Source: Escherichia phage phiWec187
Sequence record: LC739536.1
DNA length: 64,000 nucleotides
Direction: 5' to 3' (one strand)
The translations under genes were made by a program, and so were the position numbers. The notes below the pieces were generated by a model that worked only from the letters and a program-made list of their open reading frames with translations, was not told where the DNA came from and did no database searches. Of this stretch, positions 6,221 to 27,805 are shown piece by piece. Numbering within the stretch: the first letter of the stretch is position 1; every line of letters begins with the position of its first letter.

Positions 6221-6516
6221 CTATTACAGAAAAACTGCGCTGTATTGCAAAGCAAAGTGGAGAAGGTTTATGGTTTCCTATTGAGGAAATTATTCAGGAC
6301 TGTTATGATCAGGCTAAGACTGGCAAATACTCCAAAGCATTTAAACCGTCTGTTTTCGGTTTGGATGATTATCCAAAAAATGAACAAGCAAAGAAACGAC
6401 AAGTTGATTTGATTGATCTTGCTATGGAAGCACTACGAGAGCATGGGCTTAGTAAGGTGTATGCTTTAAACACCAAAGAGGGCTTTGTAGATTCAGTGAT
6501 CGTAGACTGGTATTAA
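6217..6516 (+). CDS. hypothetical protein
   Basis: track ORF; ATGA overlap with upstream gene. Confidence 0.55.
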   Translation: MTITEKLRCIAKQSGEGLWFPIEEIIQDCYDQAKTGKYSKAFKPSVFGLDDYPKNEQAKKRQVDLIDLAMEALREHGLSKVYALNTKEGFVDSVIVDWY

Positions 6517-6525
6517 GGAGAAGTC

Positions 6526-6894
6526 ATGCAAGAGAATAGTAAAGTGTGTAGCATGAAAAGCAGCCCTTATTTGCTACAATTTTATGAGTGGTGGTTAGAA
6601 CAAGAAGATACAAACTTTAGCAAAAAGCATTATGGTCTTTGCACGTGTCTTGTAGACTTCTTGTACAATATTGCTTGGATAAAAGATGTTGAGAATGTAT
6701 CAAAGCTCCAATCCTCTGTACGAGAGGAAATGAAGGAACAATTTAAGAAAGCGGGTTTGAACCATTTACATCCGTTTAATACGGATTTCTCGCACTACTT
6801 TACGGAAACAGAACTAGGCATTGCACACCTTAATAAAGAACGTGTACAATGGGTGATTGATCGTATTCGTGATATGGAGGAATACAATGGTTAA
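6526..6894 (+). CDS. hypothetical protein, paralog family A
   Basis: shares LLQFY, LxHLHPFN and HLNKERVxWV blocks with ORF 7518-8102. Confidence 0.55.
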   Translation: MQENSKVCSMKSSPYLLQFYEWWLEQEDTNFSKKHYGLCTCLVDFLYNIAWIKDVENVSKLQSSVREEMKEQFKKAGLNHLHPFNTDFSHYFTETELGIAHLNKERVQWVIDRIRDMEEYNG

Positions 6895-7105
6895 GTTTAA
6901 AACTTTCTGTGCAATCACTGTTTGTCTTATTCTTGCATACGTGTTATTCTCTAGTATCATTCGTTTAGGTGAGTATATGGCAAGAGAAGCTCGTGAAAGT
7001 GAAGCTAAAAAAGAACAGTGTATTGTGTTCAAGCATCAAAGAGATGCTGAAAAGTTTCTCGCACTTGATTGCAATCGCTATGTATCTTATCAAATGTATG
7101 AGTAA
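6887..7105 (+). CDS. small membrane protein, paralog family B
   Basis: track ORF trimmed to Met11 (GGAGGA RBS); N-terminal TM helix; C-terminal ExCIxxKHxxxAExFL block shared with ORF 11599-11823. Confidence 0.5.
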   Translation: MVKFKTFCAITVCLILAYVLFSSIIRLGEYMAREARESEAKKEQCIVFKHQRDAEKFLALDCNRYVSYQMYE

Positions 7106-7114
7106 GGAGGATTT

Positions 7115-7339
7115 ATGGTAAAACGTCTGGAATGGGATGCGTGTACTGCTCACGCTTGTCACTGCGATATTGTTGAAGATCCTAATGGAGAAATGGTGTA
7201 TTATGAAGATTACGAAGCATTGCACAATGCTGTGATTGCTTTGCTGGATGATATTAGCTCACGCTATCCAGGACAACAGTTTACGTGTCCACATATTCAA
7301 CTGTTAGCCAAACTTACGGAGTATCCAAGTGTTCCATAA
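7115..7339 (+). CDS. hypothetical Cys-rich protein, paralog family C
   Basis: CDIVxDPxGExV...DY block shared with ORF 12475-12747; AAGGAGGA RBS. Confidence 0.55.
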   Translation: MVKRLEWDACTAHACHCDIVEDPNGEMVYYEDYEALHNAVIALLDDISSRYPGQQFTCPHIQLLAKLTEYPSVP

Positions 7340-7340
7340 T

Positions 7341-7508
7341 ATGGGTGTCCCTGAACAACTCCTCTTTATTGTAGGACTAGTAGGCTTATTGGCGGCTGGC
7401 GCTAAAGCCGCTTCTCACACGCATCACATAATGTTAAGATTTCTATTCCTACTCCCTTCTATCCTCGTATTATTAGTCATACTGATCGACAACATTTTTC
7501 ACAATTAA
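7341..7508 (+). CDS. small membrane protein (55 aa)
   Basis: ATG 7341 right after upstream stop; two hydrophobic segments; no clear RBS. Confidence 0.3.
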   Translation: MGVPEQLLFIVGLVGLLAAGAKAASHTHHIMLRFLFLLPSILVLLVILIDNIFHN

Positions 7509-7517
7509 GGAGAGGTC

Positions 7518-8102
7518 ATGAGTAAAATTATACCAAGCAGTTATGAATTATTGCAGTTTTATGTATATTATATAGACTGGGTTACTAGATCGAATGTTAA
7601 AGACAATGCGATGTTTAGTAAAAGCATCTGTTTAACAGAAAGTATCTTCCGTTACTGGCACACAGGTAGAAAGTGTACACACAGTGAAGCTATGCGCATT
7701 GTAGGTGAATACCTGGAGCAATTGCAAAAAGCAGAGTTACCTGTCCTTCACCCATTCAATGAATCTAAAGAAGAATTAGAACAAGAATGTAAGGAAGGTA
7801 AGTGCCATTTGAATGAAAAACGTATCGAATGGGTAAGGCAACGTTTAGCCGATGCAGGAAAGCCTCCTAGTGACTCTGACTATACGTGGTATGATGTAGA
7901 GGGTTTAGTTCAAGGTTTTGAGGCTTGTGCTATAGATAATACCAACTTTGCCAAAGTTTTATGCGAGGCTTATGACCTGGCAGATAAAATCCGAAATCAT
8001 GGATGGAAACAAGAGCATAAAGAATCATATGAACGCCTTGACAAGATTTTCAAACAGATCTATTCTAACCACAAGAAGATGTTCCAAATGGAGGATGTGT
8101 AA
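7518..8102 (+). CDS. hypothetical protein, paralog family A
   Basis: AAGGAGAGG RBS; conserved blocks with ORF 6526-6894. Confidence 0.55.
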   Translation: MSKIIPSSYELLQFYVYYIDWVTRSNVKDNAMFSKSICLTESIFRYWHTGRKCTHSEAMRIVGEYLEQLQKAELPVLHPFNESKEELEQECKEGKCHLNEKRIEWVRQRLADAGKPPSDSDYTWYDVEGLVQGFEACAIDNTNFAKVLCEAYDLADKIRNHGWKQEHKESYERLDKIFKQIYSNHKKMFQMEDV

Positions 8103-8788
8103 TGAAAGAGATTATGTTTGAAGGGCATCGTTACGAAGTTCCAGACAATGCAAATTTCATGGCTCGTGATATCACTGGAGATGTGTTCTGGTTTGAAGAT
8201 GAACCTGTGTTTTCTTCGAACAAACACTGGTTTTCACAACAATCTTCTTCGGAAAATATGACTTTTGGCTACGTAGAGCCTAAAGTGCGCTGCAAAGCAG
8301 CTTCTTCTTTGGTAAAAATTTCCCAAGATGATCAAGAAAATACTCCAGATGTTGTTAGTGCACTACTGAAGTACATTGCAGAACTTGAGAAGAAAATTAA
8401 AGAAGCAGAAACTAAGGTGAAAGCACGATCAGCAATCATCGAAGCTATGTCTGAACGTATTTTAGAACTAGAAGATTTGTGTGGAGAGGCTTATCAAGTG
8501 GTCGGTGCACTGGCTTATGAAGCACAAATGTTTGAAACTTCAGAACAAGTTTCACATATGTTAGATAATTTAAGTGAATGTAAAATGATTCATGATGATG
8601 TATTGCCATTTTGTTGCAATGTTAACAAAACAGAGCAAACAGAAGATTCAGAAACAGTTTATGTTCCGCTGATGTGTGTTCCAGATCATCTAAAAGGTGT
8701 ATTCTCTTGTAAATGGTCACTGTTGAGCGTTACTAATTGTGGTGAAAACTATTCTGCCAACATTGAATTGCTAAAACACGTTAAATAA
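8102..8788 (+). CDS. hypothetical protein
   Basis: track ORF; start overlaps upstream stop; coiled-coil-like middle segment. Confidence 0.55.
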   Translation: MKEIMFEGHRYEVPDNANFMARDITGDVFWFEDEPVFSSNKHWFSQQSSSENMTFGYVEPKVRCKAASSLVKISQDDQENTPDVVSALLKYIAELEKKIKEAETKVKARSAIIEAMSERILELEDLCGEAYQVVGALAYEAQMFETSEQVSHMLDNLSECKMIHDDVLPFCCNVNKTEQTEDSETVYVPLMCVPDHLKGVFSCKWSLLSVTNCGENYSANIELLKHVK

Positions 8789-15743: not shown

Positions 15744-15749
15744 CACATA

Positions 15750-15772
15750 AACCCGCTTCGGCGGGTTTTCTT
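15750..15772 (+). terminator. rho-independent terminator
   Basis: AACCCGC-TTCG-GCGGGTT hairpin plus TTTCTT. Confidence 0.65.
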
Positions 15773-16527: not shown

Positions 16528-17340
16528 TTATTTAGTCAAATGATCTTCTATCATTTTTATGAAAGCAGGATTGCTAAAAGCATCTGCGGCCTTTTCTCGA
16601 TAAACAAAGACTCCTCTATCTTCGTAAAGAAGAGTTTCTTCGTAATTAATTCCTGGGTTAACAACAATCATTTTTGTACCCATATTAAGTGCAGGGAATA
16701 ATTCCCAATTAAAATTGATAACTTGGTTTGAACATCCTACTACAACAACCAAATCTTGCATGGTCAAAGTATCAAACAAGTGAGCCATATCTGCATACAA
16801 AGGTGCAGCCTCACCAAAAAATACAACATTAGGCTTCACCCAGTTGTAATCATCTATGTTTATACTGTTGTAACCAATATCTACCAGTGTTTTGTAATCC
16901 CCAGGATGCATACGGTAAACTACTTCAGGAAGATATCCGTGCACGTGGATAACAGAATCCCTGTCTACACCTGCTCGCTCTAGTAGATCATCAACGTTTG
17001 TTGTCAAGTTTACTACTTGGTTAGGATATTCCTTAAACCACTTTGCTATTTGAATATGTGCAGCATTAGGTTGTACATCTTTAAGCTCAACACGTCTTTT
17101 GTTATAAAATTCGTGTGTTTTGGCATACAAATCCATACCGTTTTCGTCTACACCACCAACCACTGGAAGATCTGGTGATGTTCTCACACGATAACCTGCT
17201 TGGAAAGCTCCAATATCGCAGATCTCTTCTAAATCCCATTCTTCCCATAGGGCACGACCACTATCTGTGTCTGTTCGGAATGTTCGAATCCCACTATCTG
17301 CACTTAAACCAGCTCCACTAACAAAAATTACTCTTCGCAT
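16528..17340 (-). CDS. Sir2-family (sirtuin-like) NAD-dependent protein
   Basis: GAGLSADSGIRTFR, PNAAHIQIA, TTNVDDLLERAG, HVHG, KPNVVFFGEAAP, VVVVGCS match Sir2 catalytic-core motifs; no CxxC zinc motif. Confidence 0.75.
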   Translation of the reverse strand: MRRVIFVSGAGLSADSGIRTFRTDTDSGRALWEEWDLEEICDIGAFQAGYRVRTSPDLPVVGGVDENGMDLYAKTHEFYNKRRVELKDVQPNAAHIQIAKWFKEYPNQVVNLTTNVDDLLERAGVDRDSVIHVHGYLPEVVYRMHPGDYKTLVDIGYNSINIDDYNWVKPNVVFFGEAAPLYADMAHLFDTLTMQDLVVVVGCSNQVINFNWELFPALNMGTKMIVVNPGINYEETLLYEDRGVFVYREKAADAFSNPAFIKMIEDHLTK

Positions 17341-18673: not shown

Positions 18674-19663
18674 CTATTCCTCCATACATTTAAGAATATG
18701 TGCAATGACAGGTATAGTCCAACCGTTACCTAACATCTTATATGCTTGTGTGTTACTACTCACTTTAAAGTAGTCATCTGGCACACCTTGCAAACGGCAA
18801 CACTCTTTAACGGTTAACTTTCTATAATGTACGCCTTCACTCAATTTTTCAAAAGCATCTAAATATCTTCCAGGTGGAATGTAAGCTAATAGTACGTCTT
18901 TCGGCACAGTCGTGAGGCAACGAGTTTTTTCACTGTCCTGAACTTCCAAACAATGTACCAAACGATCAGTTTTAGATGTACTACGTTTGCCATTTTCATT
19001 AATTCTACGCCCATATATTGCTGCTGGATAAAAAACCAGTTGTCTGCGACTCTTTTCAAAATACTGTTCTATATTACCACCTTTGGCATAATTTGCATCT
19101 ATGCAATAAGCCTTATCTCTGTCTACAATACTATCATCTTCAATGATATCTTGCAACACTTCATTGGTAATATCCCAAGGTTTTATTTCCCAGTTGCACC
19201 AGTATAAACGTTGTCTATTCTGTGCCGTGAAATCTGCGGAATTAATGAATACGGGATCAACACCTAAGTAACTTGTGATCACGTTTTCCCACTCCACTTT
19301 CATCTTAACGTTTTCAAGCATGAACTTAACATTAGGATTAAACTTTTTAATATGTTCAAGAATTTCAACATATTCGAAGAATAGCTTAGATCGCGGATCT
19401 TGAAAGTTCAAACCCTTACCAGAAGAAGAGAAGCCTTGACACGGACTACCACCTAACAAAAGATCAATTTCTCCCCACGGAATATCCCATTCTCTCCATT
19501 TTGTAACATCACCTAACTGAATAATATCTGGAAAATTTGCTTGGCTTTCAGCTATGGCGAATTTGTCTAATTCTGAAGCATAATACTTATCTACTTCAAT
19601 ACCTGCACTTTTTAGTGCAAGCATTCCTCCTGACATACCATCAAAAAGACTTAAAACTTTCAT
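18674..19663 (-). CDS. DNA (cytosine-5)-methyltransferase
   Basis: motif I LFDGMSGG, motif IV GGSPCQGFSSSG, ENV motif (MLENV). Confidence 0.8.
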   Translation of the reverse strand: MKVLSLFDGMSGGMLALKSAGIEVDKYYASELDKFAIAESQANFPDIIQLGDVTKWREWDIPWGEIDLLLGGSPCQGFSSSGKGLNFQDPRSKLFFEYVEILEHIKKFNPNVKFMLENVKMKVEWENVITSYLGVDPVFINSADFTAQNRQRLYWCNWEIKPWDITNEVLQDIIEDDSIVDRDKAYCIDANYAKGGNIEQYFEKSRRQLVFYPAAIYGRRINENGKRSTSKTDRLVHCLEVQDSEKTRCLTTVPKDVLLAYIPPGRYLDAFEKLSEGVHYRKLTVKECCRLQGVPDDYFKVSSNTQAYKMLGNGWTIPVIAHILKCMEE

Positions 19664-20076
19664 TATTGCTTCTTCTCCTTAACACTAGCTGGTAATTCTG
19701 CCTTAAGACAGAAGTTTAAACGGTAAGCCTCATTTTCATTTAAAAGTACAGATTCGCACGATAACCAAAACAAGAGATCCTCAATACTAGGACTGTGAAG
19801 CCAACAGTGCAGAAGAGAATGTTGTTCTATATCAATGTAATTTAGCAACAAGCCTTGTAAGGCATAGCTAGTTCCTGTCGTTTTTGCTTTTTCAAGGATG
19901 ATATTGTGTTTACTAACAACCTTCTTTCTAAGACCAAACCATTTACTAACAACAACAGTCTCTTCTTGCAGTTGTTTTCTTATTTTCTCACATTCTTTAA
20001 CTACAATCTGCATCTTATCCACTGCTGATTGAAGTTGTTCTTTTGTTGGGTTTACAAAATAGTCACTATAATACAT
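19663..20076 (-). CDS. hypothetical protein
   Basis: track ORF; stop overlaps methyltransferase start. Confidence 0.5.
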   Translation of the reverse strand: MYYSDYFVNPTKEQLQSAVDKMQIVVKECEKIRKQLQEETVVVSKWFGLRKKVVSKHNIILEKAKTTGTSYALQGLLLNYIDIEQHSLLHCWLHSPSIEDLLFWLSCESVLLNENEAYRLNFCLKAELPASVKEKKQ

Positions 20077-20126
20077 GCTAATCTCCTCTTCTGTTTTTGT
20101 GTAGTTTATTCGAAAAAACTGGTGTT

Positions 20127-20154
20127 GTCAACAAAAAACCCGCCGAAGCGGGTT
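20127..20154 (-). terminator. rho-independent terminator
   Basis: AACCCGCCGAAGCGGGTT hairpin; TTTTTTGTTG on minus strand. Confidence 0.6.
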
Positions 20155-20158
20155 TATA

Positions 20159-20416
20159 TTATTCTACAGGAATTTCTTCACCAAGAGAAACTTCCAAACG
20201 GAATGCTTTACTTTCAATACATTCACTACCTTTTAAGAAATCGAATTGCACTATAGACTGACTTAATAGAATAGATAGAATCACATCGCAATCTTCACTA
20301 GGAGCTAGATGTTTGTATTCTTCCTTCAAGGTAACATCATAAAAACATAAATCCCCTACTCCGAGTTCATCCCATCCTTCCCACGCATCTACAAAGTTAA
20401 ACTCTAAACCTTTCAT
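20159..20416 (-). CDS. hypothetical acidic protein
   Basis: track ORF. Confidence 0.45.
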   Translation of the reverse strand: MKGLEFNFVDAWEGWDELGVGDLCFYDVTLKEEYKHLAPSEDCDVILSILLSQSIVQFDFLKGSECIESKAFRLEVSLGEEIPVE

Positions 20417-20937
20417 ACAACCTCCTCGTAATTGTTATTGTGTTTTACTGTCTCAACATACAATAAAGATTCCATCTGTAATACATTACCAGAAATAATA
20501 AACCCATAAGCCATTTCAGATGTGTCTATATCATATGCCCCGTCTTCCGGTTTAGCAAAGTGTAAAACTATTTCATCTGGGTTTTCTTCATCCCATATTT
20601 TAGAAATTTTCCGAACCAGAATATTAGCTAAAATAGTTGACATTCGGGATAAAGCTGTATCCTCGTATCTTTTAAAACCTAACCAATAGAGGTTAAGAAT
20701 TTCTACTTCTTCTTGTGTTAAGTTTTTGTCTAAAGTAATCAGATCTGTAGGATACATCGTTTCTGTTGAACCTACTATTACAAAACCTGGAGTGTTATGA
20801 AAAACAATCTTAACTTTATCACGTATGAAGTTTAAACCTTGTGCCTCAACTATATATTGTATTGTAGGTACAATATCGTTTGTTACGTCAATAAAGCTAT
20901 CTTTAATGACGCTTATATTATTTCTGGACAAGACCAT
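20413..20937 (-). CDS. hypothetical protein
   Basis: track ORF. Confidence 0.5.
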   Translation of the reverse strand: MVLSRNNISVIKDSFIDVTNDIVPTIQYIVEAQGLNFIRDKVKIVFHNTPGFVIVGSTETMYPTDLITLDKNLTQEEVEILNLYWLGFKRYEDTALSRMSTILANILVRKISKIWDEENPDEIVLHFAKPEDGAYDIDTSEMAYGFIISGNVLQMESLLYVETVKHNNNYEEVV

Positions 20938-21496
20938 TCTCCTCTAAAATAGGTTTAATAAATTCGAAGATTTGTTTTTTACTTTTACCTCGAATATTAA
21001 AACAAGGAACATTAAACTTTTTAGCCAACATCCAAGCTGTTCTTGTACCACCTAAAGGATCTCCATTTTTATCTGTATTTGCACAAGCTAAAAGAAAACA
21101 AGATGGTTTTGGATTCTCAAGATCTCTGCCAAGAACTTGGTGGATATTTCTTTGATGTAATTTTTTAGCACCTTGAGATAATCTGTCCCAAGCTGGATGC
21201 AATTCTTTTGCATATTGCAAAGTTAGAGCATAGTTTACACTATCTGGTCTGTCAAGAACAATAACCTCTCCATCTATCTCATTACCTTTAAACGAAGGCC
21301 AAGGAATGTATATTTCTTTCTTTGTATTGTTTCCACTATCATATACCCCGCATTCAAATGCGGAATCTGCACCTTCTGCTTTACCAGATCGCAAAATGAA
21401 CCATGTAGATAACCATTTTGCAACAGCTACCATAGTGTCCCATTCTTCGTCTGTAATGTCTCTACTACCAACACCTGTGTAGAATAAATCGCTCAT
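20918..21496 (-). CDS. DprA/SLOG-like Rossmann-fold protein
   Basis: trimmed to Met40 with AAGGAG RBS; GVGSR...SGKAEGADSAFE resembles DprA/Smf nucleotide-binding motif; weak. Confidence 0.35.
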   Translation of the reverse strand: MSDLFYTGVGSRDITDEEWDTMVAVAKWLSTWFILRSGKAEGADSAFECGVYDSGNNTKKEIYIPWPSFKGNEIDGEVIVLDRPDSVNYALTLQYAKELHPAWDRLSQGAKKLHQRNIHQVLGRDLENPKPSCFLLACANTDKNGDPLGGTRTAWMLAKKFNVPCFNIRGKSKKQIFEFIKPILEENGLVQK

Positions 21497-21506
21497 GGTT
21501 TTCTCC

Positions 21507-21827
21507 TTAACAAGTAATATTGGGAATAATATTAGGAGTAACAATTGGAGTAATAGGATACGTATACCAAGGGCTTCCAATTTCCCAGGGATTATAAGGT
21601 GTATGAGGATCAAATGGAGGCGTTACTTGAGGCTTTTTCCAAATCTCCTCTAGTTGTTTCTTCCATTTATCCCTTGCTGTCTCGTTATCTTCATCCAACT
21701 GTTCGTCATTATCTTTTATTTCTGGTTTTGGAAATAAAAGCTCTTTGACTAACTCAACGTCTTCTGTTTCAATAGTAGTTTCTTTCGTAATATTCCCTAC
21801 CGTCTCTTTAATTGTGACTTTATACAT
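21507..21827 (-). CDS. hypothetical protein
   Basis: track ORF; Pro/Thr-rich C-terminus. Confidence 0.45.
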   Translation of the reverse strand: MYKVTIKETVGNITKETTIETEDVELVKELLFPKPEIKDNDEQLDEDNETARDKWKKQLEEIWKKPQVTPPFDPHTPYNPWEIGSPWYTYPITPIVTPNIIPNITC

Positions 21828-22573
21828 TAGTCCTCCTCTAAAGTAGAATAAAATTGTAACGTATTTGAATCATCAAAATATGCAAAGGTTAAATTACCAT
21901 TGAAGCAAGATCCTGTATCCATATATACCCTATTACTGCTAATTACAGGTTTAGGAACATAAGAATGCCCGTGAAATACATAATCTACTCCTGAAACTCT
22001 AGGAAGAAGAATCCCTTCAAGGGCGCAATCTATCATATCACGATCCCACATTAAAGATTCTGTGAATCGAGATACTTGTTCTTTATTCATATTCGAACAA
22101 AATGGCAAAACTTCCGTCACTGGCAGATGTTCCAAAACTGAAGGATATCCCCCGTGAATAAAGCCTAGTTTCATATTACGATAATTGACAACAAGTACAA
22201 CAGGTAAGTCTTCTAGCATCAAAGCAAGAGCAGTTGCACCTTCTTCTCCACACTCATTTAGAACTGTATGGCCTCCGTTCTGAAACCAACATTCGTAATA
22301 TCGCCTATCACCTTCTAGCAACCCTTTAATCATCATATCTTCGTGATTTCCACGAATACCATAGCGATTTAGCTTTCTGGTGAATTCAACGGTACAACGA
22401 AAATTCTGCTTGCCGCGATCTGTAAGATCTCCTAAAGATACAACAACATCTTGATCTCGGATACCTAAAGTATTAACACCTTTCTGGTACAAATCAAAGC
22501 AACCATGTAAATCACCAATAATAAACAGGTCTTGATCATCTTTTACACTAATTTCTTGATATACTAGCATCAA
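21827..22573 (-). CDS. Ser/Thr protein phosphatase (metallophosphatase)
   Basis: GDLHG, GDLTDRG, GNHE, GH motifs of the calcineurin-like PPP family. Confidence 0.75.
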   Translation of the reverse strand: MMLVYQEISVKDDQDLFIIGDLHGCFDLYQKGVNTLGIRDQDVVVSLGDLTDRGKQNFRCTVEFTRKLNRYGIRGNHEDMMIKGLLEGDRRYYECWFQNGGHTVLNECGEEGATALALMLEDLPVVLVVNYRNMKLGFIHGGYPSVLEHLPVTEVLPFCSNMNKEQVSRFTESLMWDRDMIDCALEGILLPRVSGVDYVFHGHSYVPKPVISSNRVYMDTGSCFNGNLTFAYFDDSNTLQFYSTLEED

Positions 22574-22896
22574 CTCTCCTCAAAATCCATAAGTATAAAG
22601 ATATTAACTTTACCTTCTATATTATGTTCTACAACAAGATCTGCAAATTCTTTGTAGGCTTTTTCTTCTATTTGTTCAATGTGAGACGCTACATCTTTAT
22701 ATATAGCATCACCATCTACTTTAACAAGGAGGAATAGAGATCTTACCTCAATCTCTTTATTTTTGCGGGGTAGAAAATCGACGGCTTCTTGTATACGCCA
22801 GCCGAGATACCCTGGAGTCCTTTGAATATCCTCCAAATGACTTTCTAAGATTTCCCTTCCTTTGTCTATTAAAGCCTGTTCTGTCGTTATTTTCAT
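22570..22896 (-). CDS. hypothetical protein
   Basis: track ORF. Confidence 0.5.
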   Translation of the reverse strand: MKITTEQALIDKGREILESHLEDIQRTPGYLGWRIQEAVDFLPRKNKEIEVRSLFLLVKVDGDAIYKDVASHIEQIEEKAYKEFADLVVEHNIEGKVNIFILMDFEES

Positions 22897-22906
22897 CCCC
22901 TTCTCC

Positions 22907-23479
22907 TTAATGTGTTAATGAAACTGCGTAACTAAACACAGGTTCAGATATTACATCGGCTACAGTAATAAAAACGTCTTCGTCTTGAGTTGTTTCTACA
23001 CGACATACAGTTACACCATTCACCACGAATTCAACGCAATGTGGAATATCTTCACAAACGAAGGTAGTGTAAGTAACACCAAAAGCATCATACAAAGATT
23101 TAACAGTGTTTGCAAGTGCCGCAGTTTCTTCTTTTTCTGAGACAATGAATGCTGTAACAACAAGATTGTTTGCATAGTTTAGACTGTCCTCTATAGCCAA
23201 TGATTTACAAGGTAGTAATGCAAAATATTTACCTGGTTTAATCAGACCTGCTTCCCATTGATTCAAAATTGCCTGGGATGGTTTAGTAATATAAAACAGA
23301 TTTTCACTTGGGTTATCAATATTACTTCTGGCGATACAACGTGAAGGATTATTAATATCAAATACATGATCAAAATCTACACAAACAGGTAAACTGAAAG
23401 GTGTGAATTTTTTACCTAATAATCCTATGGCTGATAATATGTTTGCTGTGCTTATCTTCCCGTTAAAAGCTAAACGCAT
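22907..23479 (-). CDS. hypothetical protein
   Basis: track ORF. Confidence 0.5.
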   Translation of the reverse strand: MRLAFNGKISTANILSAIGLLGKKFTPFSLPVCVDFDHVFDINNPSRCIARSNIDNPSENLFYITKPSQAILNQWEAGLIKPGKYFALLPCKSLAIEDSLNYANNLVVTAFIVSEKEETAALANTVKSLYDAFGVTYTTFVCEDIPHCVEFVVNGVTVCRVETTQDEDVFITVADVISEPVFSYAVSLTH

Positions 23480-23490
23480 ATTTAACTCCT

Positions 23491-23694
23491 TTAACTAGCA
23501 ACCGTAACTTCCGAACTTTCTTCTTTCGTACTGTCTACGATATGCCTGGTGGCAATATACGAGACTTGCCAGTTACCATCTGGTGTAGTCTCAATAAGTA
23601 CCCTATCTACTTCGAGAAAATGCAAAAATTCAACCATCGCTCGCTTCGATAGGAATTGTTTTTTAACAGTCTCCTCAAAAGATTGAACTGCCAT
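23491..23694 (-). CDS. hypothetical protein
   Basis: track ORF. Confidence 0.45.
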   Translation of the reverse strand: MAVQSFEETVKKQFLSKRAMVEFLHFLEVDRVLIETTPDGNWQVSYIATRHIVDSTKEESSEVTVAS

Positions 23695-23703
23695 GTTTCC
23701 TCC

Positions 23704-24366
23704 TTATTTAATATTCAATTTTGCACAAAGACGTTGTACAGCTTTGGCATCGAACAAACTCCCACGAATAGTTCTCTTTCCTGATTCATTCAGATGCTTT
23801 GCAATCGTCATATATGGCGTTTTACAAGCTCTGTATGCAACTAAAGAATCTTTTAAAGAAAGTGCAAACTCTTTTGAGCGTTTTGCTTCTTCCGTTTTCG
23901 TATAATCTGTTCTTTTGTATTTAGGGTTTGCTGCACCAAGAAGCGTTCCCTTCGCTTTTGCTACCTTAAGGCTCTTCTTAACACGATCAGATATTGCACG
24001 AGCCTCTTCTTCTGCCAGAACTGCTAAAATATTTATTATCATATTTTCAGCGGAGGGCATAGTGGCTATCCGTACATTAATCATCTCTAACAAGGTTGCA
24101 ACAGAAGCTGTGTTACGTCCAAGACGGTCAACCTTAGCAACAACAAGTGTAGCACCTGTTTCTTTGCAAAGATTAACAGCTTTTACAAGCTCTCTACGTT
24201 GCTTCCAATCTCCTTTACCCGAATAAAACTCTGCAAAGCTACCTACAATAGTATAATTTTCTTGTGAATCCAGGAAGCGTTGGATATCTGCTTCCTGTGA
24301 TTCTATACCATACTGGTTGCCTTGTTGTTTCTTCTTAGAAAGTCGATGATACAGTACAAACTTCAT
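23704..24366 (-). CDS. serine recombinase (resolvase/invertase family)
   Basis: YHRLSKKKQ catalytic-Ser block, VDRLGRN, ILAVLAEEEARAISDR, C-terminal HTH; 220 aa. Confidence 0.75.
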   Translation of the reverse strand: MKFVLYHRLSKKKQQGNQYGIESQEADIQRFLDSQENYTIVGSFAEFYSGKGDWKQRRELVKAVNLCKETGATLVVAKVDRLGRNTASVATLLEMINVRIATMPSAENMIINILAVLAEEEARAISDRVKKSLKVAKAKGTLLGAANPKYKRTDYTKTEEAKRSKEFALSLKDSLVAYRACKTPYMTIAKHLNESGKRTIRGSLFDAKAVQRLCAKLNIK

Positions 24367-24423
24367 AATACCCTCCTGTTCTGTTACAGGAAGTATGCAC
24401 TACCTTAACGTTAAAGTCAACAG

Positions 24424-24627
24424 TTAAGTAGTGGTAATATCATCTTCTTGAATACCAGGGTCAACTTCTGCAAAGATAGCCTCTACAGGAATTTCTTCAC
24501 CTGCTATTCTAGAAAGAAGCACTGAACCAATAGCTTTTGCGTGTTCTTCGGATTCCGCATAAACATTAGTTCCTGTGTCTTTTTTCTTAGTTTCGTTAAA
24601 ATATACCAGATAGTAATTGTATGCCAT
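24424..24627 (-). CDS. hypothetical protein
   Basis: track ORF. Confidence 0.4.
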   Translation of the reverse strand: MAYNYYLVYFNETKKKDTGTNVYAESEEHAKAIGSVLLSRIAGEEIPVEAIFAEVDPGIQEDDITTT

Positions 24628-24878
24628 TATTCATCCCAATCGCCGTTACGAGCACTTTCAAGAACCTTGACAACTTCTGCATACTCTACAGCTAAACCAG
24701 CACATACTTCAGCTTGTTTTGCAATTGCTTGTTTAAAGAACATAGCGATTGCAACACTCTGTGTTGTGTGAATGTTATCTGCTTTAGTTGATACATGAAG
24801 ATCAAAATCTTCTTCATCAAAGGTGAGTTCCATAGTAACAATAAATTTCTCGGTCATAAAAATGCTCCTCTTAAACAA
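24627..24878 (-). CDS. hypothetical protein
   Basis: track ORF. Confidence 0.45.
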   Translation of the reverse strand: MFKRSIFMTEKFIVTMELTFDEEDFDLHVSTKADNIHTTQSVAIAMFFKQAIAKQAEVCAGLAVEYAEVVKVLESARNGDWDE

Positions 24879-25380
24879 AATAGAAAGGTTGAGTTAAACC
24901 CAGCCTGTTTTTTGGGTCGTAGACGTACCAAGCATATGCTGTCTTATCAGTACCACCTGCAACAAAAGATGGTCGTTCAGAAAGAACAATCAAATTTGTT
25001 GGTGGATTCTGTTTATGGAATTCCCTTCGTTTAATAGACTCTAGGAACCCAAGACGCAACAAGTATATGCAAACGTCTGCTTCTTTTAAGCTCTTTTGCA
25101 AGAACTCAAGTGCAAGTTTGAATGGGGGATTTGTGATTATAATATCCGGCTTAGTATGCCATTCGTGGTTAAAATAATCTTTCCCTTCTTCTAACTCACA
25201 ATATTCTGATCCTTCTGGAAAATGTTGATAAATTGCAGCAGCAGCGCCTTTACACGGTTCTGCAAAAATAAAACCTTCTTCTTTAAGGTTATTAAAATCT
25301 ATTACACTAAATAATGCATTTATACATTTTTGTGGAGTAGGATAGTAATCAGTTGGTGGACGATCATACTTATTTGCCAC
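24871..25380 (-). CDS. DNA N6-adenine methyltransferase (phage Dam-like)
   Basis: DYYPTP block and catalytic NPPF (DPPY-type) motif. Confidence 0.65.
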   Translation of the reverse strand: MANKYDRPPTDYYPTPQKCINALFSVIDFNNLKEEGFIFAEPCKGAAAAIYQHFPEGSEYCELEEGKDYFNHEWHTKPDIIITNPPFKLALEFLQKSLKEADVCIYLLRLGFLESIKRREFHKQNPPTNLIVLSERPSFVAGGTDKTAYAWYVYDPKNRLGLTQPFYFV

Positions 25381-25798
25381 TACTTAAAATCTCCTCTTTT
25401 GTGATTTCAGGGTCTTCTTCAAAAACCATAATATCTCTTAAGAACGTTAATTCTTCCATAGATACTGGTATTATATCTTCTTCTGTTTTTCGTTTACATA
25501 AATCGTCAAGAAAGTTTTTAAAGTTTTCTGACAAATCGTAAAATTTCAACAGTTGATAATCACAGGAGGAGATCCTATCTAGTTCTAACATTCTTTCTAA
25601 GATATTTTCTGTGTTGCCATACAGCACACGAACTTCTCCGAAAGGGTTGACTGAATATTGTGAAGTTCTGAACCATCCCTTTTTAGATACAGTGTAACAC
25701 TGTTCTGCTAAACTTTCAATAAAATTTTTAGCTCTTTTACAGTTTTGTTCTAAAGAGTAGTAGGCTTTTTCTACAAAGGTTACAGGTACTGGTAACAT
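25370..25798 (-). CDS. hypothetical protein
   Basis: track ORF. Confidence 0.5.
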   Translation of the reverse strand: MLPVPVTFVEKAYYSLEQNCKRAKNFIESLAEQCYTVSKKGWFRTSQYSVNPFGEVRVLYGNTENILERMLELDRISSCDYQLLKFYDLSENFKNFLDDLCKRKTEEDIIPVSMEELTFLRDIMVFEEDPEITKEEILSSGK

Positions 25799-25838
25799 AT
25801 CTCCTCCTAATAACCCCCTTGCGGGGGTTTATACTAGA

Positions 25839-26492
25839 TTAATTATCAGAGGATACTTTATCAAGTTTTTCAGAGACTGTCAATACTTTTTCTTGTGATT
25901 CTTTCATTTCTGCTAAAATACTTTCAGCTTCATCACTATCAGGATCACCAGTCAACAGCATACTAATTAGTTGCTCCTTGCTGAAGTTCAGAATATCTTC
26001 CGCTGTTAGCTCCAGTTGTTCTTCGATCTCTTCGATAAAAGTTTCACCGCCTGAAAAAGCATCTCGCAGTTTTGCAACTTCCATCGCTTCTTCTGGGGTT
26101 GCCCCAGCATCTAAAGCTGCTAAAGCAAAATCTGCCCCACTACCCACAGCATAATAATCTTCAGTTAAAGGATATGCTCGCGTGGGATTATTACCCTCGT
26201 GCATATAAATTTTACCGTCTGGGTGAACAACCAATGCCACAAATTCTTCATCTTCTTTATCAGGATCTGACTGGATCACCAAACCTGGGATTGTCTCTTG
26301 TGCTGCTTGGCATTGTAAGTTTTGTTCGAACCAAGAAAAGAAAGTCAGGATAGAAGACAGACGTCCTGCACCACCAACAAGGTAATCCCCAATTTTACGC
26401 ACTTTCTTGAAATTTAAAGTGTCTACACGACTACCTACTGTTACTTTACCGTCAGACAGAATTTTGTTACGTGTTGCAATAATTGTTGTCAT
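25839..26492 (-). CDS. hslV: HslV-like Ntn-hydrolase peptidase
   Basis: N-terminal MTTI (Thr nucleophile), KKVRK, GGAG, AVGSGADFALAA resemble HslV; acidic C-terminal extension. Confidence 0.55.
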   Translation of the reverse strand: MTTIIATRNKILSDGKVTVGSRVDTLNFKKVRKIGDYLVGGAGRLSSILTFFSWFEQNLQCQAAQETIPGLVIQSDPDKEDEEFVALVVHPDGKIYMHEGNNPTRAYPLTEDYYAVGSGADFALAALDAGATPEEAMEVAKLRDAFSGGETFIEEIEEQLELTAEDILNFSKEQLISMLLTGDPDSDEAESILAEMKESQEKVLTVSEKLDKVSSDN

Positions 26493-26983
26493 TGTACTTC
26501 CTCCTGTAGTGTTTTAAGGACTGCTTTACCACCGCTCACATATTTACGGAGGTAATCAATAGCTCTTAGTGTTTCTTTATCCACAAGAATTTTATTAGTT
26601 CTTGTTAGTGGATGATTTAGTAAATCACTGCAATTTCTTACTAACATAGATTTCTTGTGAAAGATACTGCTAAGAAAAAGAAGTTTAGAATCTTCTTCAT
26701 CAATCAGGAGTAATTCTGAATTAGACCCAGCTATATTTATTATACACTCAAACAAGCCTTCTTGACTATCAGATAATTCCTGGTGATATTTAGTTAACCA
26801 ATCCTCGCCTTTTAACCAACTAAAAAACATCTGAACTTTTTGCAAAGTTGTCATGTTCTCTAAACGAAGAGATATTTCTTTTTCAATCTTGTCAATATAA
26901 ATCTGTCTAAACTCATTCGGCTTAACTAAGCCAGCTTGATAGCATTCATCAATACCATTGCGATCAATCTCAATTAGCGTCAT
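26489..26983 (-). CDS. hypothetical protein
   Basis: track ORF; stop overlaps HslV-like start. Confidence 0.5.
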   Translation of the reverse strand: MTLIEIDRNGIDECYQAGLVKPNEFRQIYIDKIEKEISLRLENMTTLQKVQMFFSWLKGEDWLTKYHQELSDSQEGLFECIINIAGSNSELLLIDEEDSKLLFLSSIFHKKSMLVRNCSDLLNHPLTRTNKILVDKETLRAIDYLRKYVSGGKAVLKTLQEEVQ

Positions 26984-27019
26984 TTAACCTCCATAACAGG
27001 CATCCTTGCCTTGTAATTA

Positions 27020-27772
27020 TTAATATACTTCCGTGATAAACTGAGACAAACGGGAACGTTGGTTATCAGCAGTTGTCATTTCAACATAACCAATAAAATC
27101 CACAATAGCTTCCCTTTCTCCTTCTTCATTAATAGGAACAACACGATCTAACAAATCACCTAACCCGTTAGCTCTTCGTTTAATTGCATATGTTTGATTA
27201 ACATCGCCCATAATGACAATACGTGTATTAAGACCTGCTCGCTCAAGGAGAAGTTTTACTGTATTTGGTGACATAAGTTGAACTTCATCAATAAGAATAA
27301 TGCTGTTATCCCACGTAGCACCTAGTGCATAGTTTGGAATATTAAGTTCAATTTTGCCACTTGCAATATCGTTTTCCAATTTATTTGCAGTCATAAACTG
27401 TTGGAAAATTCTTTTAGTTGATTCGTAGTGTGCTGCTAGTTTATCAGTCTTATCTCCAGATAAGAAACCAATTTGATCATCACCTACTTCTGTCGGGTTT
27501 TTAAGGAAAATCAACTTTCTGAAATCACCAGCTTTAAGCATTTGCAATGCTTTCCACAGTGCTGTTGTCGTTTTTCCTGTTCCTGCTGGGGCATTAACAA
27601 TGGTTAAATCATTCCAAACCATGCTTCTTACAATAGCTTCTTGATTCCCAACAGGGGTAAATTCATCAAGACGGTAATCATCATTTCCTACTGCTTTAGC
27701 CGCATAACGACTGGCACGTTTGTCATCATTGGCTGCTGATTGACGACGAGCCTTTGCGGTTTTATTTCCCAT
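27020..27772 (-). CDS. phoH: PhoH-like ATPase
   Basis: Walker A APAGTGKTT, Walker B IILIDEVQ; typical PhoH length. Confidence 0.75.
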   Translation of the reverse strand: MGNKTAKARRQSAANDDKRASRYAAKAVGNDDYRLDEFTPVGNQEAIVRSMVWNDLTIVNAPAGTGKTTTALWKALQMLKAGDFRKLIFLKNPTEVGDDQIGFLSGDKTDKLAAHYESTKRIFQQFMTANKLENDIASGKIELNIPNYALGATWDNSIILIDEVQLMSPNTVKLLLERAGLNTRIVIMGDVNQTYAIKRRANGLGDLLDRVVPINEEGEREAIVDFIGYVEMTTADNQRSRLSQFITEVY

Positions 27773-27784
27773 GTTTGCACTCCT

Positions 27785-27805
27785 TATAAAAGGGGCTTTC
27801 GCCCC
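27785..27805 (-). terminator. terminator-like hairpin after lysozyme gene
   Basis: GGGGCTTTCGCCCC at 27792-27805 with T-rich tract on minus strand. Confidence 0.5.

What the first reader, a model, noticed from the sequence alone, without database searches (positions are those of the whole stretch)
18674..25380. Two DNA methyltransferases and a serine recombinase in the early region
A Dcm-type C5-cytosine methyltransferase (LFDGMSGG, GSPCQGFS, ENV), a small Dam-like N6-adenine methyltransferase (DYYPTP, NPPF) and a 220-aa resolvase/invertase-type serine recombinase lie within 7 kb on the same strand, with a Ser/Thr phosphatase between them. Orphan methyltransferases point to anti-restriction DNA modification. 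A small serine recombinase in an apparently virulent phage, away from tail-fibre genes, is unexpected and could drive a DNA inversion or resolve replication multimers.
Basis: partly seen in the sequence, partly recalled or inferred. Interest (0 to 1): 0.5.

Follow-up and report, generated by a model that had tools for sequence, protein, structure and literature searches.

The report
Known phi92-phage methylases and small recombinase
The genes are real, but they are the long-annotated methyltransferase, phosphatase and serine-recombinase genes of phi92-like virulent E. coli phages, and I found no recombinase-type invertible DNA segment among about 55 related genomes.

Summary
The window comes from a Justusliebigvirus (phi92-like virulent E. 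coli myophage), about 98% identical to some 55 GenBank genomes. The flagged genes are phi92 gp043 (C5-cytosine methyltransferase), gp049 (lambda-type Ser/Thr phosphatase), gp053 (serine recombinase) and gp056 (small methyltransferase). All are already annotated as such.

- **The small methyltransferase is not Dam-like.** It is a 169-aa N6-amino-methyltransferase core (TP, EPCxG, NPPF) with no target-recognition domain and no Pfam family. Its fold matches RNA m6A enzymes (METTL5, PH1948) as well as it matches M.TaqI-type DNA enzymes.
- **The recombinase is not a Hin or gamma-delta type.** It has an intact catalytic domain (R8, S10, D80, R81, R84) joined to a fragment of the large-serine-recombinase "Recombinase" domain.

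The recombinase is conserved across Stephanstirmvirinae and in Vibrio and Shewanella myophages. It is under strong purifying selection and has its own sigma-70-like promoter.

Whole-genome comparisons show no invertible segment bounded by inverted repeats, and the tail-fibre region is collinear. One three-gene cassette elsewhere in the genome is orientation-polymorphic, but it lacks inverted repeats and tracks sequence haplotype.

Published data show that phi92-like phages stay highly restriction-sensitive. The genome instead avoids palindromes to an extreme degree. The finding is ordinary and already known; the recombinase target remains open.

The parts
18674..19663 (-). C5-cytosine DNA methyltransferase, 329 aa (phi92 gp043). 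All ten-motif landmarks are present; target sequence unknown.
   Evidence: PF00145 E=3.4e-43. TIGR00675 is above its cut-off, while the E. coli Dcm model NF007772 scores 29.9 against 710. Closest solved sequences are the DNMT3A/3B catalytic domain (E=4.6e-24), M.HaeIII and M.HhaI. Motif positions. 105 synonymous against 14 non-synonymous codon differences versus 4 relatives.
19663..20076 (-). Hypothetical 137-aa protein (gp044).
   Evidence: phrog_16551, unknown function; annotated as hypothetical.
20103..20157 (-). Intrinsic terminator hairpin AAACCCGCTTCGGCGGGTTT, followed by a sigma-70-like promoter (TTGACA-17-TAAACT).
   Evidence: The identical hairpin at 15747-15769 produces the only perfect 23-nt inverted repeat in the window.
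20159..20937 (-). Two hypothetical genes, 85 aa (20159-20416) and 174 aa (20413-20937) (gp045, gp046).
   Evidence: phrog_8569, unknown function.
20918..21496 (-). DprA-like (SLOG-type) protein, 192 aa (gp047).
   Evidence: phrog_768 E=2e-60; no Pfam hit. A DprA-like gene also lies next to the recombinase in Shewanella phage 1/40.
21507..21827 (-). Hypothetical 106-aa protein (gp048).
21827..22573 (-). Lambda/NinI-type PPP Ser/Thr phosphatase (gp049).
   Evidence: Metallophos E=2e-13; phrog_246 E=2.1e-75; PrpA/PrpB models E about 1e-27, below the equivalog cut-off; GDLHG, GDLTDRG and GNHE motifs.
22570..23694 (-). Three hypothetical genes: 108 aa (22570-22896), 190 aa (22907-23479; phrog_4806, which PHROGs names 'histidyl tRNA synthetase') and 67 aa (23491-23694) (gp050-052).
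   Evidence: The 190-aa protein has no Pfam hit.
23704..24366 (-). Small serine recombinase, 220 aa (gp053). It has a catalytic domain plus alpha-E helix (aa 1-138), a disordered linker, and a C-terminal four-helix DNA-binding domain (aa 154-216) related to the N-terminal part of the large-serine-recombinase 'Recombinase' domain.
   Evidence: PF00239 E=8.4e-22. R8, S10, Q24, D80, R81, R84, E121 and R128 are conserved across the family down to 30% identity. AlphaFold2 pLDDT 87. Foldseek hits Bxb1, Sin, gamma-delta and PhiC31. PF07508 matches 18 of 26 family members and no HTH_7 match appears among the 25 families listed (of 37). 27 synonymous against 1 non-synonymous codon differences.
24392..24420 (-). 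Sigma-70-like promoter (TTGACT-17-CATACT) immediately upstream of the recombinase gene. Its spacer holds the palindrome TTAACGTTAA.
   Evidence: The equivalent hexamers are present upstream of the orthologues in a Klebsiella relative and in phAPEC8. The palindrome is not conserved.
24424..24857 (-). Two small hypothetical genes, 67 aa (24424-24627) and about 76 aa (24627-24857) (gp054, gp055).
   Evidence: Their positions are kept in the Klebsiella relative.
24871..25380 (-). Minimal 169-aa SAM-dependent N6-amino-methyltransferase core without a target-recognition domain (gp056). Substrate is probably DNA adenine, but this is not shown.
25370..25798 (-). 142-aa ORF overlapping the start of the small methyltransferase gene by 11 nt. 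It is listed only because I tested it as a possible partner subunit and rejected it.
   Evidence: phrog_15078, unknown function. It is not homologous to the overlapping upstream ORFs of two distant methyltransferase homologues.

Best explanation
This is a conserved early/DNA-metabolism gene block of a phi92-like (Justusliebigvirus) virulent myophage, transcribed leftward starting about 12 kb from the left genome end.

It encodes two orphan SAM-dependent methyltransferases.
- One is a complete C5-cytosine enzyme of the DNMT3/HaeIII/HhaI type.
- The other is a minimal N6-amino-methyltransferase core with an NPPF motif and no target-recognition domain.

They most likely methylate replicating phage DNA at a few narrow motifs. 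This would add protection against particular restriction systems on top of the genome's main strategy, which is wholesale avoidance of palindromic sites.

The 220-aa gene is a catalytically competent 'mini' serine recombinase: a resolvase-fold catalytic domain plus a truncated large-serine-recombinase DNA-binding subdomain. It appears to be expressed from its own host-type promoter. It travels with DprA-like, PhoH and ligase genes. I infer that it is a non-essential accessory enzyme of phage DNA recombination and replication, carrying out site-specific strand exchange at a target not yet identified. Candidate roles are resolving or re-joining replication or recombination products, or circularising genomes.

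It is not a tail-fibre or host-range invertase, and it is not an integrase.

**Shown:** gene identity, motifs, folds, conservation, selection, synteny, and the absence of invertible segments bounded by inverted repeats.
**Inferred:** substrates, timing of expression, and the recombinase's role.
For: **Identity and prior annotation:**

**Methylases**
- Motif and fold evidence.
- Homologues of the small enzyme sit in phage replication and nucleotide-metabolism modules (primase, ribonucleotide reductase, 5'-3' exonuclease, dUTPase).
- No adjacent nuclease domain.
- Palindrome avoidance: 19 of 64 hexamer palindromes are absent (AAGCTT 0 against 43 expected), GGWCC 3 against 51, GGCC O/E 0.36. By contrast GATC, GCGC, CCWGG, GANTC, GAATTC and GATATC are not avoided.
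- This fits the published RM sensitivity (PMC8594841).

**Recombinase**
- Catalytic residues are conserved to 30% identity.
- 27 synonymous against 1 non-synonymous codon differences.
- It is 100% identical in protein across nearly all Justusliebigvirus, 78% in Klebsiella relatives, 57% in Phapecoctavirus, and 30-50% in Vibrio and Shewanella myophages of 130-150 kb.
- Its own promoter is conserved in three genera.
- Synteny with DprA-like, PhoH and ligase genes extends to Shewanella phage 1/40.
- The fold matches Bxb1, Sin and gamma-delta, and the PF07508 signal appears in 18 of 26 members.
- Not an integrase: no prophage or plasmid copy in 5,426 E. coli genomes.
- Not an invertase.
Against: - No recombination site of any kind was identified. 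The 57-bp upstream region holds only a non-conserved palindrome.
- Serine-integrase-type sites need not resemble each other, so a sequence search cannot exclude them.
- Schickermooser (a Phapecoctavirus) carries several frameshifts in the gene. The function is therefore dispensable there, unless these are sequencing errors.
- No methylome data were found for these phages.
- The fold of the small methyltransferase matches RNA m6A enzymes at least as well as DNA enzymes.
- RM sensitivity shows that neither methylase gives general protection.
- Early expression is inferred only from consensus promoter matches, which are about as frequent as in shuffled sequence (55 found against 47.5 expected).
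Confidence: 0.55

Rival explanations
1. The recombinase is a DNA invertase that flips a segment of the phage genome. The candidate is the orientation-polymorphic three-gene cassette with a divergent promoter, in the gp212-217 region of phi92, outside the window.
For: - Databases name the gene 'DNA invertase' (phrog_125).
- There is weak full-length similarity to the Bacteroides Mpi master invertase model (33.5 bits).
- PD211 and A150 differ by one in-place inversion of 872 bp (PD211 86102-86972 against A150 59267-58396).
- Of the roughly 55 genomes, 31 have the A150 arrangement and about 24 have the opposite one.
Against: - There is no inverted repeat at the two boundaries; local alignment scores are at chance level.
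- One boundary coincides with a stop codon, and the other lies inside an ORF whose homology continues at protein level. The unit therefore looks like whole genes.
- The left flank also differs between the two arrangements (73% identity plus DNA unique to each).
- Orientation tracks sequence. Identity is 95-100% (mostly >=97%) within the A150-type arrangement (not measured within the other) but mostly 93-96% between them, as expected of old haplotypes and not of an active switch.
- The tail-fibre region is collinear in all records.
- A full genome has no inverted repeat of 23 nt or more apart from a terminator.
- The best short inverted repeat (15 nt, 116-nt spacer) has the same orientation in three genomes.
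Confidence: 0.07
2. The 169-aa methyltransferase acts on RNA (rRNA or tRNA m6A, like METTL5/PH1948) or on a protein, and not on DNA. It would then have no role in anti-restriction.
For: - There is no target-recognition domain.
- No DNA-methylase Pfam family reaches its threshold.
- The phage stays sensitive to EcoRI, EcoRV and other adenine-methylation-sensitive systems, so the enzyme is not a non-specific DNA adenine methylase.
Against: - The sub-threshold Pfam signal is to DNA methylases: EcoRI_methylase in 26 of 29 members, plus N6_Mtase and Eco57I.
- Homologues sit in phage DNA-replication modules.
- Some homologues carry a Zn-ribbon insert that could serve as a DNA-reading element.
Confidence: 0.2
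3. The recombinase acts on DNA other than the phage's own (host chromosome, resident prophages, satellites or defence loci). Alternatively, it is a selfish or relic gene that contributes little to the phage.
For: - No site was found in the phage genome.
- The gene is decayed in Schickermooser.
- Expression from a host-type promoter would suit action at the start of infection.
Against: - Strong purifying selection (27:1) and retention from E. coli phages to Vibrio and Shewanella phages with different hosts argue against a relic, and against a single host-specific target.
- Conserved synteny with phage DNA-metabolism genes.
Confidence: 0.15
4. The recombinase is an integrase that allows lysogeny or a plasmid-like carrier state.
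For: phrog_95 'integrase' E=1.5e-25, and CcrB-type similarity.
Against: - It lacks the zinc-ribbon and coiled-coil domains of serine integrases, at 220 aa with PF00239 as its only hit.
- The region has no match in 5,426 complete E. coli genomes or their plasmids.
- The genus is isolated and used as virulent phages.
Confidence: 0.02

Closest known systems
Escherichia phage phi92 gp043, gp049, gp053 and gp056 (NC_023693), and the same genes in about 55 Justusliebigvirus genomes (PaulScherrer/Bas60, alia, muut and others)
   Same: Same genes, order and strand. DNA is 95-99% identical, and the recombinase protein is 100% identical in most records. They are already annotated as DNA methyltransferase, NinI-like phosphatase, DNA invertase and DNA methyltransferase.
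   Different: Nothing material. The window is another isolate of the same genus.
Small serine recombinases: gamma-delta and Tn3 resolvase, Sin, Hin and Gin invertases
   Same: Catalytic domain fold and residues (R8, S10, D67/R68/R71 equivalents), a long alpha-E helix, and a size near 200 aa.
   Different: - A 10-residue insert follows the catalytic Ser, and the beta-4 region has a 10-residue deletion.
- The C-terminal domain is not the HTH_7 type.
- No res site, hix-like inverted repeats or invertible segment were found.
Large serine recombinases (Bxb1, PhiC31 and TP901-1 integrases; CcrB)
   Same: Bxb1 is the best Foldseek hit (E=1.8e-07, 257 aligned columns). The C-terminal IA..LN..G..T..G motif and PF07508 matches in 18 of 26 family members point to the first subdomain of the 'Recombinase' domain.
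   Different: It is less than half the length. It has no zinc-ribbon or coiled-coil domain, no attachment sites, and no lysogeny.
DNMT3A/3B catalytic domain, M.HaeIII and M.HhaI (C5-cytosine methyltransferases)
   Same: All conserved motifs are present in the canonical order. Sequence E-values are 1e-22 to 1e-24.
   Different: The target-recognition region (about aa 160-270) matches none of them, so the specificity is unknown. It is not an orthologue of E. coli Dcm (NF007772 scores 29.9 against 710).
M.TaqI-type and type I HsdM gamma-class N6-adenine DNA methyltransferases, and METTL5/PH1948 RNA m6A methyltransferases
   Same: Rossmann core with an N-terminal (Y)xTP motif, an acidic SAM-binding loop and NPPF.
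   Different: There is no target-recognition domain or partner subunit. The whole protein is the 169-aa core. It meets no family threshold, and its substrate is untested.

Membership tests
C5-cytosine DNA methyltransferase (PF00145 / TIGR00675) | Profile score above the curated cut-offs. | tested here: met
   PF00145 scores 148.7 bits against 22. TIGR00675 scores 140.1 against 100.65.
C5-cytosine DNA methyltransferase (PF00145 / TIGR00675) | Motif I FxGxG, motif IV PC (catalytic Cys), motif VI ENV, motif VIII QxRxR, motif X GNG. | tested here: met
   LFDGMSGG, GSPCQGFS, ENV, QNRQR and GNGW at aa 6-13, 72-79, 117-119, 148-152 and 312-315.
E. coli Dcm (CCWGG) orthologue | Subfamily model NF007772 at or above its cut-off, with a Dcm-type target-recognition domain. 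| tested here: not met
   29.9 bits against a cut-off of 710. Only the C-terminal motifs align.
C5-cytosine DNA methyltransferase | m5C deposited at a defined DNA motif. | not testable with these tools
   No methylome data were found. Site statistics only exclude little: GGCC and CCGG are avoided, GCGC and CCWGG are not.
Dam family (alpha-class, PF02086 MethyltransfD12, or phage Dam PF05869) | Profile match, and alpha-class order (motif I, then target-recognition domain, then DPPY). | tested here: not met
   No hit at E<=0.01. PF05869 appears only sub-threshold, in 9 of 29 homologues (best E=0.035). Motif I is followed directly by NPPF with no target-recognition domain.
Gamma-type N6-adenine amino-methyltransferase | Class I Rossmann fold with an (N/D)PP(F/Y) catalytic loop and an upstream xTP motif. 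| tested here: met
Gamma-type N6-adenine amino-methyltransferase | A target-recognition domain or specificity subunit, and a DNA substrate. | tested here: not met
   There is no extra domain in 169 aa. The overlapping upstream ORF is not conserved among homologues. The substrate cannot be tested here.
Serine recombinase (PF00239 Resolvase catalytic domain) | Profile above cut-off; catalytic Ser plus the Arg/Asp network (gamma-delta R8, S10, D67, R68, R71). | tested here: met
   78.3 bits against 23.3. R8, S10, D80, R81 and R84 are conserved family-wide. The fold matches Sin, gamma-delta and Bxb1.
Resolvase/invertase subgroup (gamma-delta, Hin, Gin) | C-terminal HTH_7-type helix-turn-helix. | tested here: not met
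   No HTH_7 match among the 25 families listed (of 37) for the 26 family members. PF07508 matches 18 of 26 instead.
DNA invertase system | An invertible segment bounded by inverted crossover sites, with both orientations found in nature. | tested here: not met
   There are no such repeats. The roughly 55 genomes are collinear. The single inverted cassette lacks inverted repeats and is linked to sequence haplotype.
Resolvase system | A multi-subsite res locus next to the gene. | tested here: inconclusive
   The upstream gap is only 57 bp, with a promoter and a non-conserved palindrome. A distant site cannot be excluded.
Large serine recombinase / integrase | Full Recombinase domain, zinc ribbon and coiled coil; attP and attB sites; prophage state. 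| tested here: not met
   220 aa with PF00239 as its only hit. CcrB model 35.8 bits against 900. No E. coli genome match.
PPP-family Ser/Thr phosphatase (lambda PP / NinI / PrpA-B type) | Metallophos domain with GDxHG, GDxxDRG and GNHE motifs. | tested here: met
   The PrpA/PrpB equivalog cut-offs are not reached (95 bits against 326), so it belongs to the family but is not an orthologue.

The most novel reading that the evidence does not exclude
The conserved 'mini' serine recombinase (catalytic domain plus a stub of the large-serine-recombinase DNA-binding domain) may have a dedicated, so far undescribed job in virulent myophages with direct terminal repeats. Possibilities include site-specific circularisation or resolution of replicating genomes, or programmed flipping of the three-gene divergent-promoter cassette (phi92 gp212-217 region) through dissimilar att-like sites that leave no inverted repeat.
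Probability: 0.1. Interest if true: 0.6.

Novelty: already known. Interest (0 to 1): 0.2.

Why it matters
As it stands, little. The genes have been annotated in phi92 and in dozens of therapeutic-candidate coliphages.

Three points may be useful.
- The small 'DNA methyltransferase' that phage annotations carry forward is a bare catalytic core with no recognition domain. Its substrate has never been shown, so inferring anti-restriction from the name is unsafe.
- These phages visibly rely on palindrome avoidance, which explains the pattern of restriction sensitivity reported for them.
- A catalytically intact serine recombinase under strong purifying selection is retained across a whole lineage of strictly virulent phages with no known site. 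This is a small, cleanly testable open question. It also bears on phage-therapy safety screens that flag any 'recombinase' as a lysogeny marker.

Tried and rejected
- **Terminator as crossover site.** The 23-nt perfect inverted repeat at 15747-15769 / 20135-20157 is the same terminator hairpin used on both strands. No genome has the intervening 4.4 kb inverted.
- **Promoter palindrome as recombinase site or operator.** TTAACGTTAA / ACTTTAACGTTAAGGT in the recombinase promoter spacer occurs once, no more often than chance allows at 2 mismatches. It is deleted in the Klebsiella orthologue and absent in phAPEC8.
- **Full-genome repeat search.** PD211 has only three short direct repeats (terminator or promoter-like) and the terminator inverted repeat.
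- **Short-range inverted repeats.** The best case is a 15-nt perfect repeat with a 116-nt spacer at 3653-3798. It has the same orientation and is conserved in three genomes.
- **Inversion screen across GenBank relatives.** I queried most of the genome in 22-25 kb pieces (per-record orientation seen for four of the six, PD211 1-8331 not queried). The only signal was the gp212-217 cassette, dissected and judged an old haplotype.
- **Partner or specificity subunit for the small methyltransferase.** The overlapping upstream ORFs in three contexts are unrelated to one another.
- **Methylase specificity.** I could not infer it from PDB relatives or from homologue names.
- **Literature.** I found no methylome data and no functional work on gp053 or gp056. 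The phi92 genome paper is not held.
- **Prophage or plasmid form.** None among complete E. coli genomes.
- **Crossover site in the terminal repeat.** Reading the 343-bp repeat by eye showed only Fur-box-like palindromes with an odd centre. I did not take this further.

Full report
**What the window is**

The 6.7-kb region is 95-99% identical to 55 GenBank phage genomes, and 53 of them cover at least 80% of it in one place. These are Justusliebigvirus, the phi92-like virulent E. coli myophages of the subfamily Stephanstirmvirinae.

In phi92 (NC_023693) the flagged genes are gp043 'DNA methyltransferase', gp049 'NinI-like serine-threonine phosphatase', gp053 'DNA invertase' and gp056 'DNA methyltransferase'. 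PaulScherrer (BASEL Bas60) calls them 'Dcm-like C5 cytosine methyltransferase', 'putative phosphatase', 'putative site-specific recombinase' and 'putative N6 adenine methyltransferase'.

phi92 has 343-bp direct terminal repeats. Many records start at window position 4073, so the physical left end of the genome lies inside the window, and the block sits about 14-21 kb from it. The whole stretch from about 16 to 52 kb is on the minus strand (GC skew). It carries nucleotide- and DNA-metabolism genes and several sigma-70-like promoters. 'Early region' is plausible but inferred.

**Checking the observation**

All ORFs exist as described.

- **C5 methyltransferase.** It passes the Pfam and TIGRFAM cut-offs and has motifs I, IV (PC), VI (ENV), VIII and X.
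- **Phosphatase.** It has the Metallophos domain and the GDxHG, GDxxDRG and GNHE motifs.
- **Recombinase.** It has PF00239. Aligned with its orthologues and with gamma-delta resolvase and Gin sequences written from memory, it keeps R8, S10, D80, R81 and R84. The PDB sequence search independently aligns the DRLGR segment to Tn3 and gamma-delta resolvase and to Sin.
- **Small methyltransferase.** It has the quoted motifs but no Pfam, NCBIfam or PDB sequence match. Only phrog_799 matches.

**The C5 methyltransferase**

Its nearest solved relatives by sequence are the DNMT3A/3B catalytic domains, M.HaeIII and M.HhaI. The E. coli Dcm model scores 29.9 bits against a cut-off of 710. It is a C5 enzyme but not a Dcm orthologue, and its recognition region matches nothing characterised.

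It belongs to a very large family from environmental and phage sequences: at least 7,986 proteins at E<=1e-30, with recognition regions of variable length. It is less widely kept than its neighbours. The next homologues outside the genus are 84% and then 64% identical, and none is annotated in the fetched stretch of a Klebsiella relative that keeps the rest of the block. It evolves under purifying selection, with 105 synonymous against 14 non-synonymous codon differences.

**The small methyltransferase**

At least 225 homologues of about 160-200 aa exist, and none of the 120 best listed has a Pfam domain. Conserved positions are Y-x-TP, C43 within a near-invariant EPCxG, DY, IxTNPP (F nearly invariant), RPxF and D..Y.W..D (strictly invariant columns). 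Some members carry a CxxC...CxxC insert.

- Gamma-class DNA adenine methylases: MmeI 13.0, M.TaqI 12.9, BseCI 12.2, type I M subunits 11-12.

Sub-threshold Pfam matches are to EcoRI_methylase (26 of 29 members), MTS, N6_Mtase and Eco57I. PF05869 Dam appears in only 9 of 29, with a best E-value of 0.035.

It is therefore an N6-amino-methyltransferase core, not a Dam-family member, and it has no target-recognition domain. Homologues lie in phage replication modules, which mildly favours DNA as the substrate.

I tested whether the ORF that overlaps its start could be a specificity partner. The equivalent ORFs in two distant contexts are unrelated to it and to each other, so I dropped that idea.

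**Anti-restriction**

In a complete genome of the genus (PD211) I found extreme palindrome avoidance:
- 19 of 64 hexamer palindromes are absent, for example AAGCTT (0 against 43 expected), CTGCAG (0 against 32), GGTACC (0 against 21) and GGATCC (0 against 20).
- GGWCC occurs 3 times against 51 expected.
- GGCC has O/E 0.36, CATG 0.55 and CCGG 0.59.
- GATC, GCGC, CCWGG, GANTC, GAATTC and GATATC are at expected frequency.

The last two match the reported EcoRI and EcoRV sensitivity. Avoidance is the dominant visible strategy. The methylases can at best protect narrow motifs, and the sites that are not avoided are the candidates, which is a weak inference. A non-specific adenine methylase is excluded by the RM sensitivity. 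The BME3 paper (PMC12210895) counts four methyltransferase CDS in this genus. At least one further gene lies outside the window, among the replication genes.

**The recombinase**

Eighty-three homologues were found, nearly all of 200-250 aa and many of them on contigs of 135-157 kb. By tblastn the protein is at least 99% identical in 55 records, 78% in Klebsiella relatives, about 57% in Phapecoctavirus, and 30-50% in Vibrio and Shewanella myophages of 130-150 kb.

Across this range Q24, D80, R81, R84, E121 and R128 are invariant, and Y6, R8 and S10 are nearly so. Against four relatives there are 27 synonymous and 1 non-synonymous codon differences.

The AlphaFold2 model (pLDDT 87) has the resolvase catalytic fold, a long alpha-E helix, a disordered linker and a four-helix C-terminal domain. 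Foldseek's best hits are the Bxb1 large serine recombinase, Sin and gamma-delta. PF07508 'Recombinase' matches 18 of 26 family members, and HTH_7 is not among the 25 families listed of 37. All NCBIfam hits (CcrB, Mpi, YneB) are far below their cut-offs. It is a small serine recombinase whose DNA-binding domain is of the large-serine-recombinase type and not the Hin or gamma-delta type.

A sigma-70-like promoter (TTGACT-17-CATACT, 24420-24392) lies directly upstream. Equivalent hexamers are present upstream of the Klebsiella and phAPEC8 orthologues.

The neighbourhood is conserved. In the Klebsiella relative the order is PhoH, HslV-like, small methyltransferase, recombinase, phosphatase, DprA-like. 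In Shewanella phage 1/40 it is PhoH, ligase, recombinase, small ORF, DprA-like.

In Schickermooser the gene carries several frameshifts relative to phAPEC8. It is therefore dispensable there, unless those are sequencing errors.

**Testing inversion and resolution**

- In the window, the only notable inverted repeat is a 23-nt perfect pair, which is the same terminator hairpin used on both strands.
- A complete genome (PD211) contains no other inverted repeat detectable at E<=1e-3.
- The window is collinear with PD211 and A150.
- I queried GenBank with most of the genome in pieces. The replication and glycosyltransferase part gave 132 places for 130 records.
- In the tail-fibre and tailspike part, every Justusliebigvirus record had a single place, apart from records whose ends fall inside the query. 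The missing 10% is tailspike allele replacement.
- The remaining parts are covered.
- The part covering PD211 74.9-99.9 kb showed two places in about half the records.

Local comparison traced the signal in that last part to one in-place inversion: PD211 86102-86972 against A150 59267-58396, 872 bp at 93.6% identity. The segment carries two small genes, a divergent promoter region and the start of a third small gene.

Four observations argue against a recombinase-driven switch:
- There is no inverted repeat at the boundaries.
- One boundary is exactly a stop codon.
- The left flank also differs between the two forms.
- Across the genus, 31 records have one arrangement and about 24 the other. 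Identity is 95-100% (mostly >=97%) within the A150-type class (within-class identity of the other was not measured) but mostly 93-96% between classes.

That pattern is expected of two old haplotypes and not of an active switch. Because integrase-type sites need not resemble each other, I keep a small residual probability.

A 15-nt perfect inverted repeat with a 116-nt spacer near the genome end has the same orientation in three genomes. The palindrome in the recombinase promoter is not conserved. No copy of the region exists in 5,426 complete E. coli genomes, which excludes a common prophage or plasmid state.

**Conclusion**

- The anti-restriction reading is only weakly supported.
- The inversion reading is not supported.
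- The multimer-resolution reading can be neither shown nor excluded.

My best account is an early DNA-metabolism block with two narrow-specificity orphan methylases and an accessory, catalytically intact mini serine recombinase, which acts on an unidentified target, most likely phage replication or recombination products. What remains open, and is worth a small experiment, is the substrate of the recognition-domain-less methyltransferase and the target of the recombinase.

Noticed in passing
Whole genome of the genus (PD211 = L006+L007+L008); also visible in window 1-64000: Extreme restriction-site avoidance. 19 of 64 hexamer palindromes are absent from 150 kb (AAGCTT 0 against 43 expected, CTGCAG 0/32, GGTACC 0/21, GGATCC 0/20). 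GGWCC occurs 3 times against 51 expected, and GGCC has O/E 0.36. GATC, GCGC, CCWGG, GANTC, GAATTC and GATATC are not avoided.
   Followed up: partly
Outside the window: L007 36102-36972 (PD211 86102-86972) and L010 8396-9267 (A150 58396-59267); phi92 about 130.7-132.7 kb (gp212-217): An orientation-polymorphic cassette of about 0.9 kb: two small genes, a divergent promoter region and the start of a third small gene (MQNI...). 31 records have one orientation and about 24 the other. There are no inverted repeats at its ends, and orientation correlates with sequence haplotype.
   Followed up: yes
window 4073-4415: The physical left end of the genome and its 343-bp direct terminal repeat lie inside the window. 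Many GenBank records begin at window position 4073.
   Followed up: partly
window 3233-3251 and 4146-4164: Two Fur-box-like sequences, one of them inside the terminal repeat. GCAAATGATAATCATTATC has 2 mismatches to the 19-bp Fur consensus (written from memory). None are expected in shuffles.
   Followed up: no
window 3630-3800: A conserved structured non-coding element just before the genome end. It has a 15-nt perfect inverted repeat (3653-3667 / 3784-3798) enclosing two further hairpins, in the same orientation in three genomes. It could be an origin, a packaging signal or a small RNA.
   Followed up: partly
window 55535-58453: A cluster of 15 tRNA genes. The query 42000-64000 matches 393 records at 95-99% identity, including T4-like phages. 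This is probably shared tRNA genes or a mobile gene. I did not check which segment matches.
   Followed up: no
GenBank MG065639, MG065645, MG065656, MG065689 (L009-L011): Records named 'Campylobacter phage A150/A145/C3/A110a' (flagged UNVERIFIED) are about 98% identical over their whole length to E. coli Justusliebigvirus. They are probably mislabelled or contaminant genomes.
   Followed up: partly
window 15747-15769 and 20135-20157: The identical 23-nt terminator hairpin (AAACCCGCTTCGGCGGGTTT) is used on opposite strands 4.4 kb apart. A third copy elsewhere in the PD211 genome shares 25 nt with it.
   Followed up: yes
window 16528-17340; about 52.4-55.1 kb (by offset from phi92 48179-50877): A Sir2-family protein (PF02146 E=2.8e-22), together with ribose-phosphate pyrophosphokinase and nicotinamide phosphoribosyltransferase genes (annotation). 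This is an NAD-metabolism gene set that may counter NAD-depleting host defences.
   Followed up: no
window about 28.7-32.0 kb (phi92 24524-27785): Four dTDP-rhamnose pathway genes (annotation). The BASEL paper mentions them as a 'putative dTDP glycosylation machinery' that nevertheless does not protect against RM systems.
   Followed up: no
window 25839-26492: An HslV/proteasome-beta-like protein beginning MTTIIAT, so Thr would be at the N-terminus after Met removal. Pfam Proteasome E=1.6e-05.
   Followed up: no
L019 1000-1746 (Escherichia phage Schickermooser): The recombinase orthologue has several 1-2-bp deletions and a 7-bp deletion relative to phAPEC8, leaving only a 128-aa annotated remnant. 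It is either a pseudogene or the result of sequencing errors.
   Followed up: partly
Outside the window: PD211 100-125 kb (L008 1-25000): A further methyltransferase gene sits among the replication and glycosyltransferase genes. It is annotated variously as a 'type III RM methylation subunit' or a 'DNA N6-adenine methyltransferase'. The BME3 paper counts four methyltransferase CDS.
   Followed up: no
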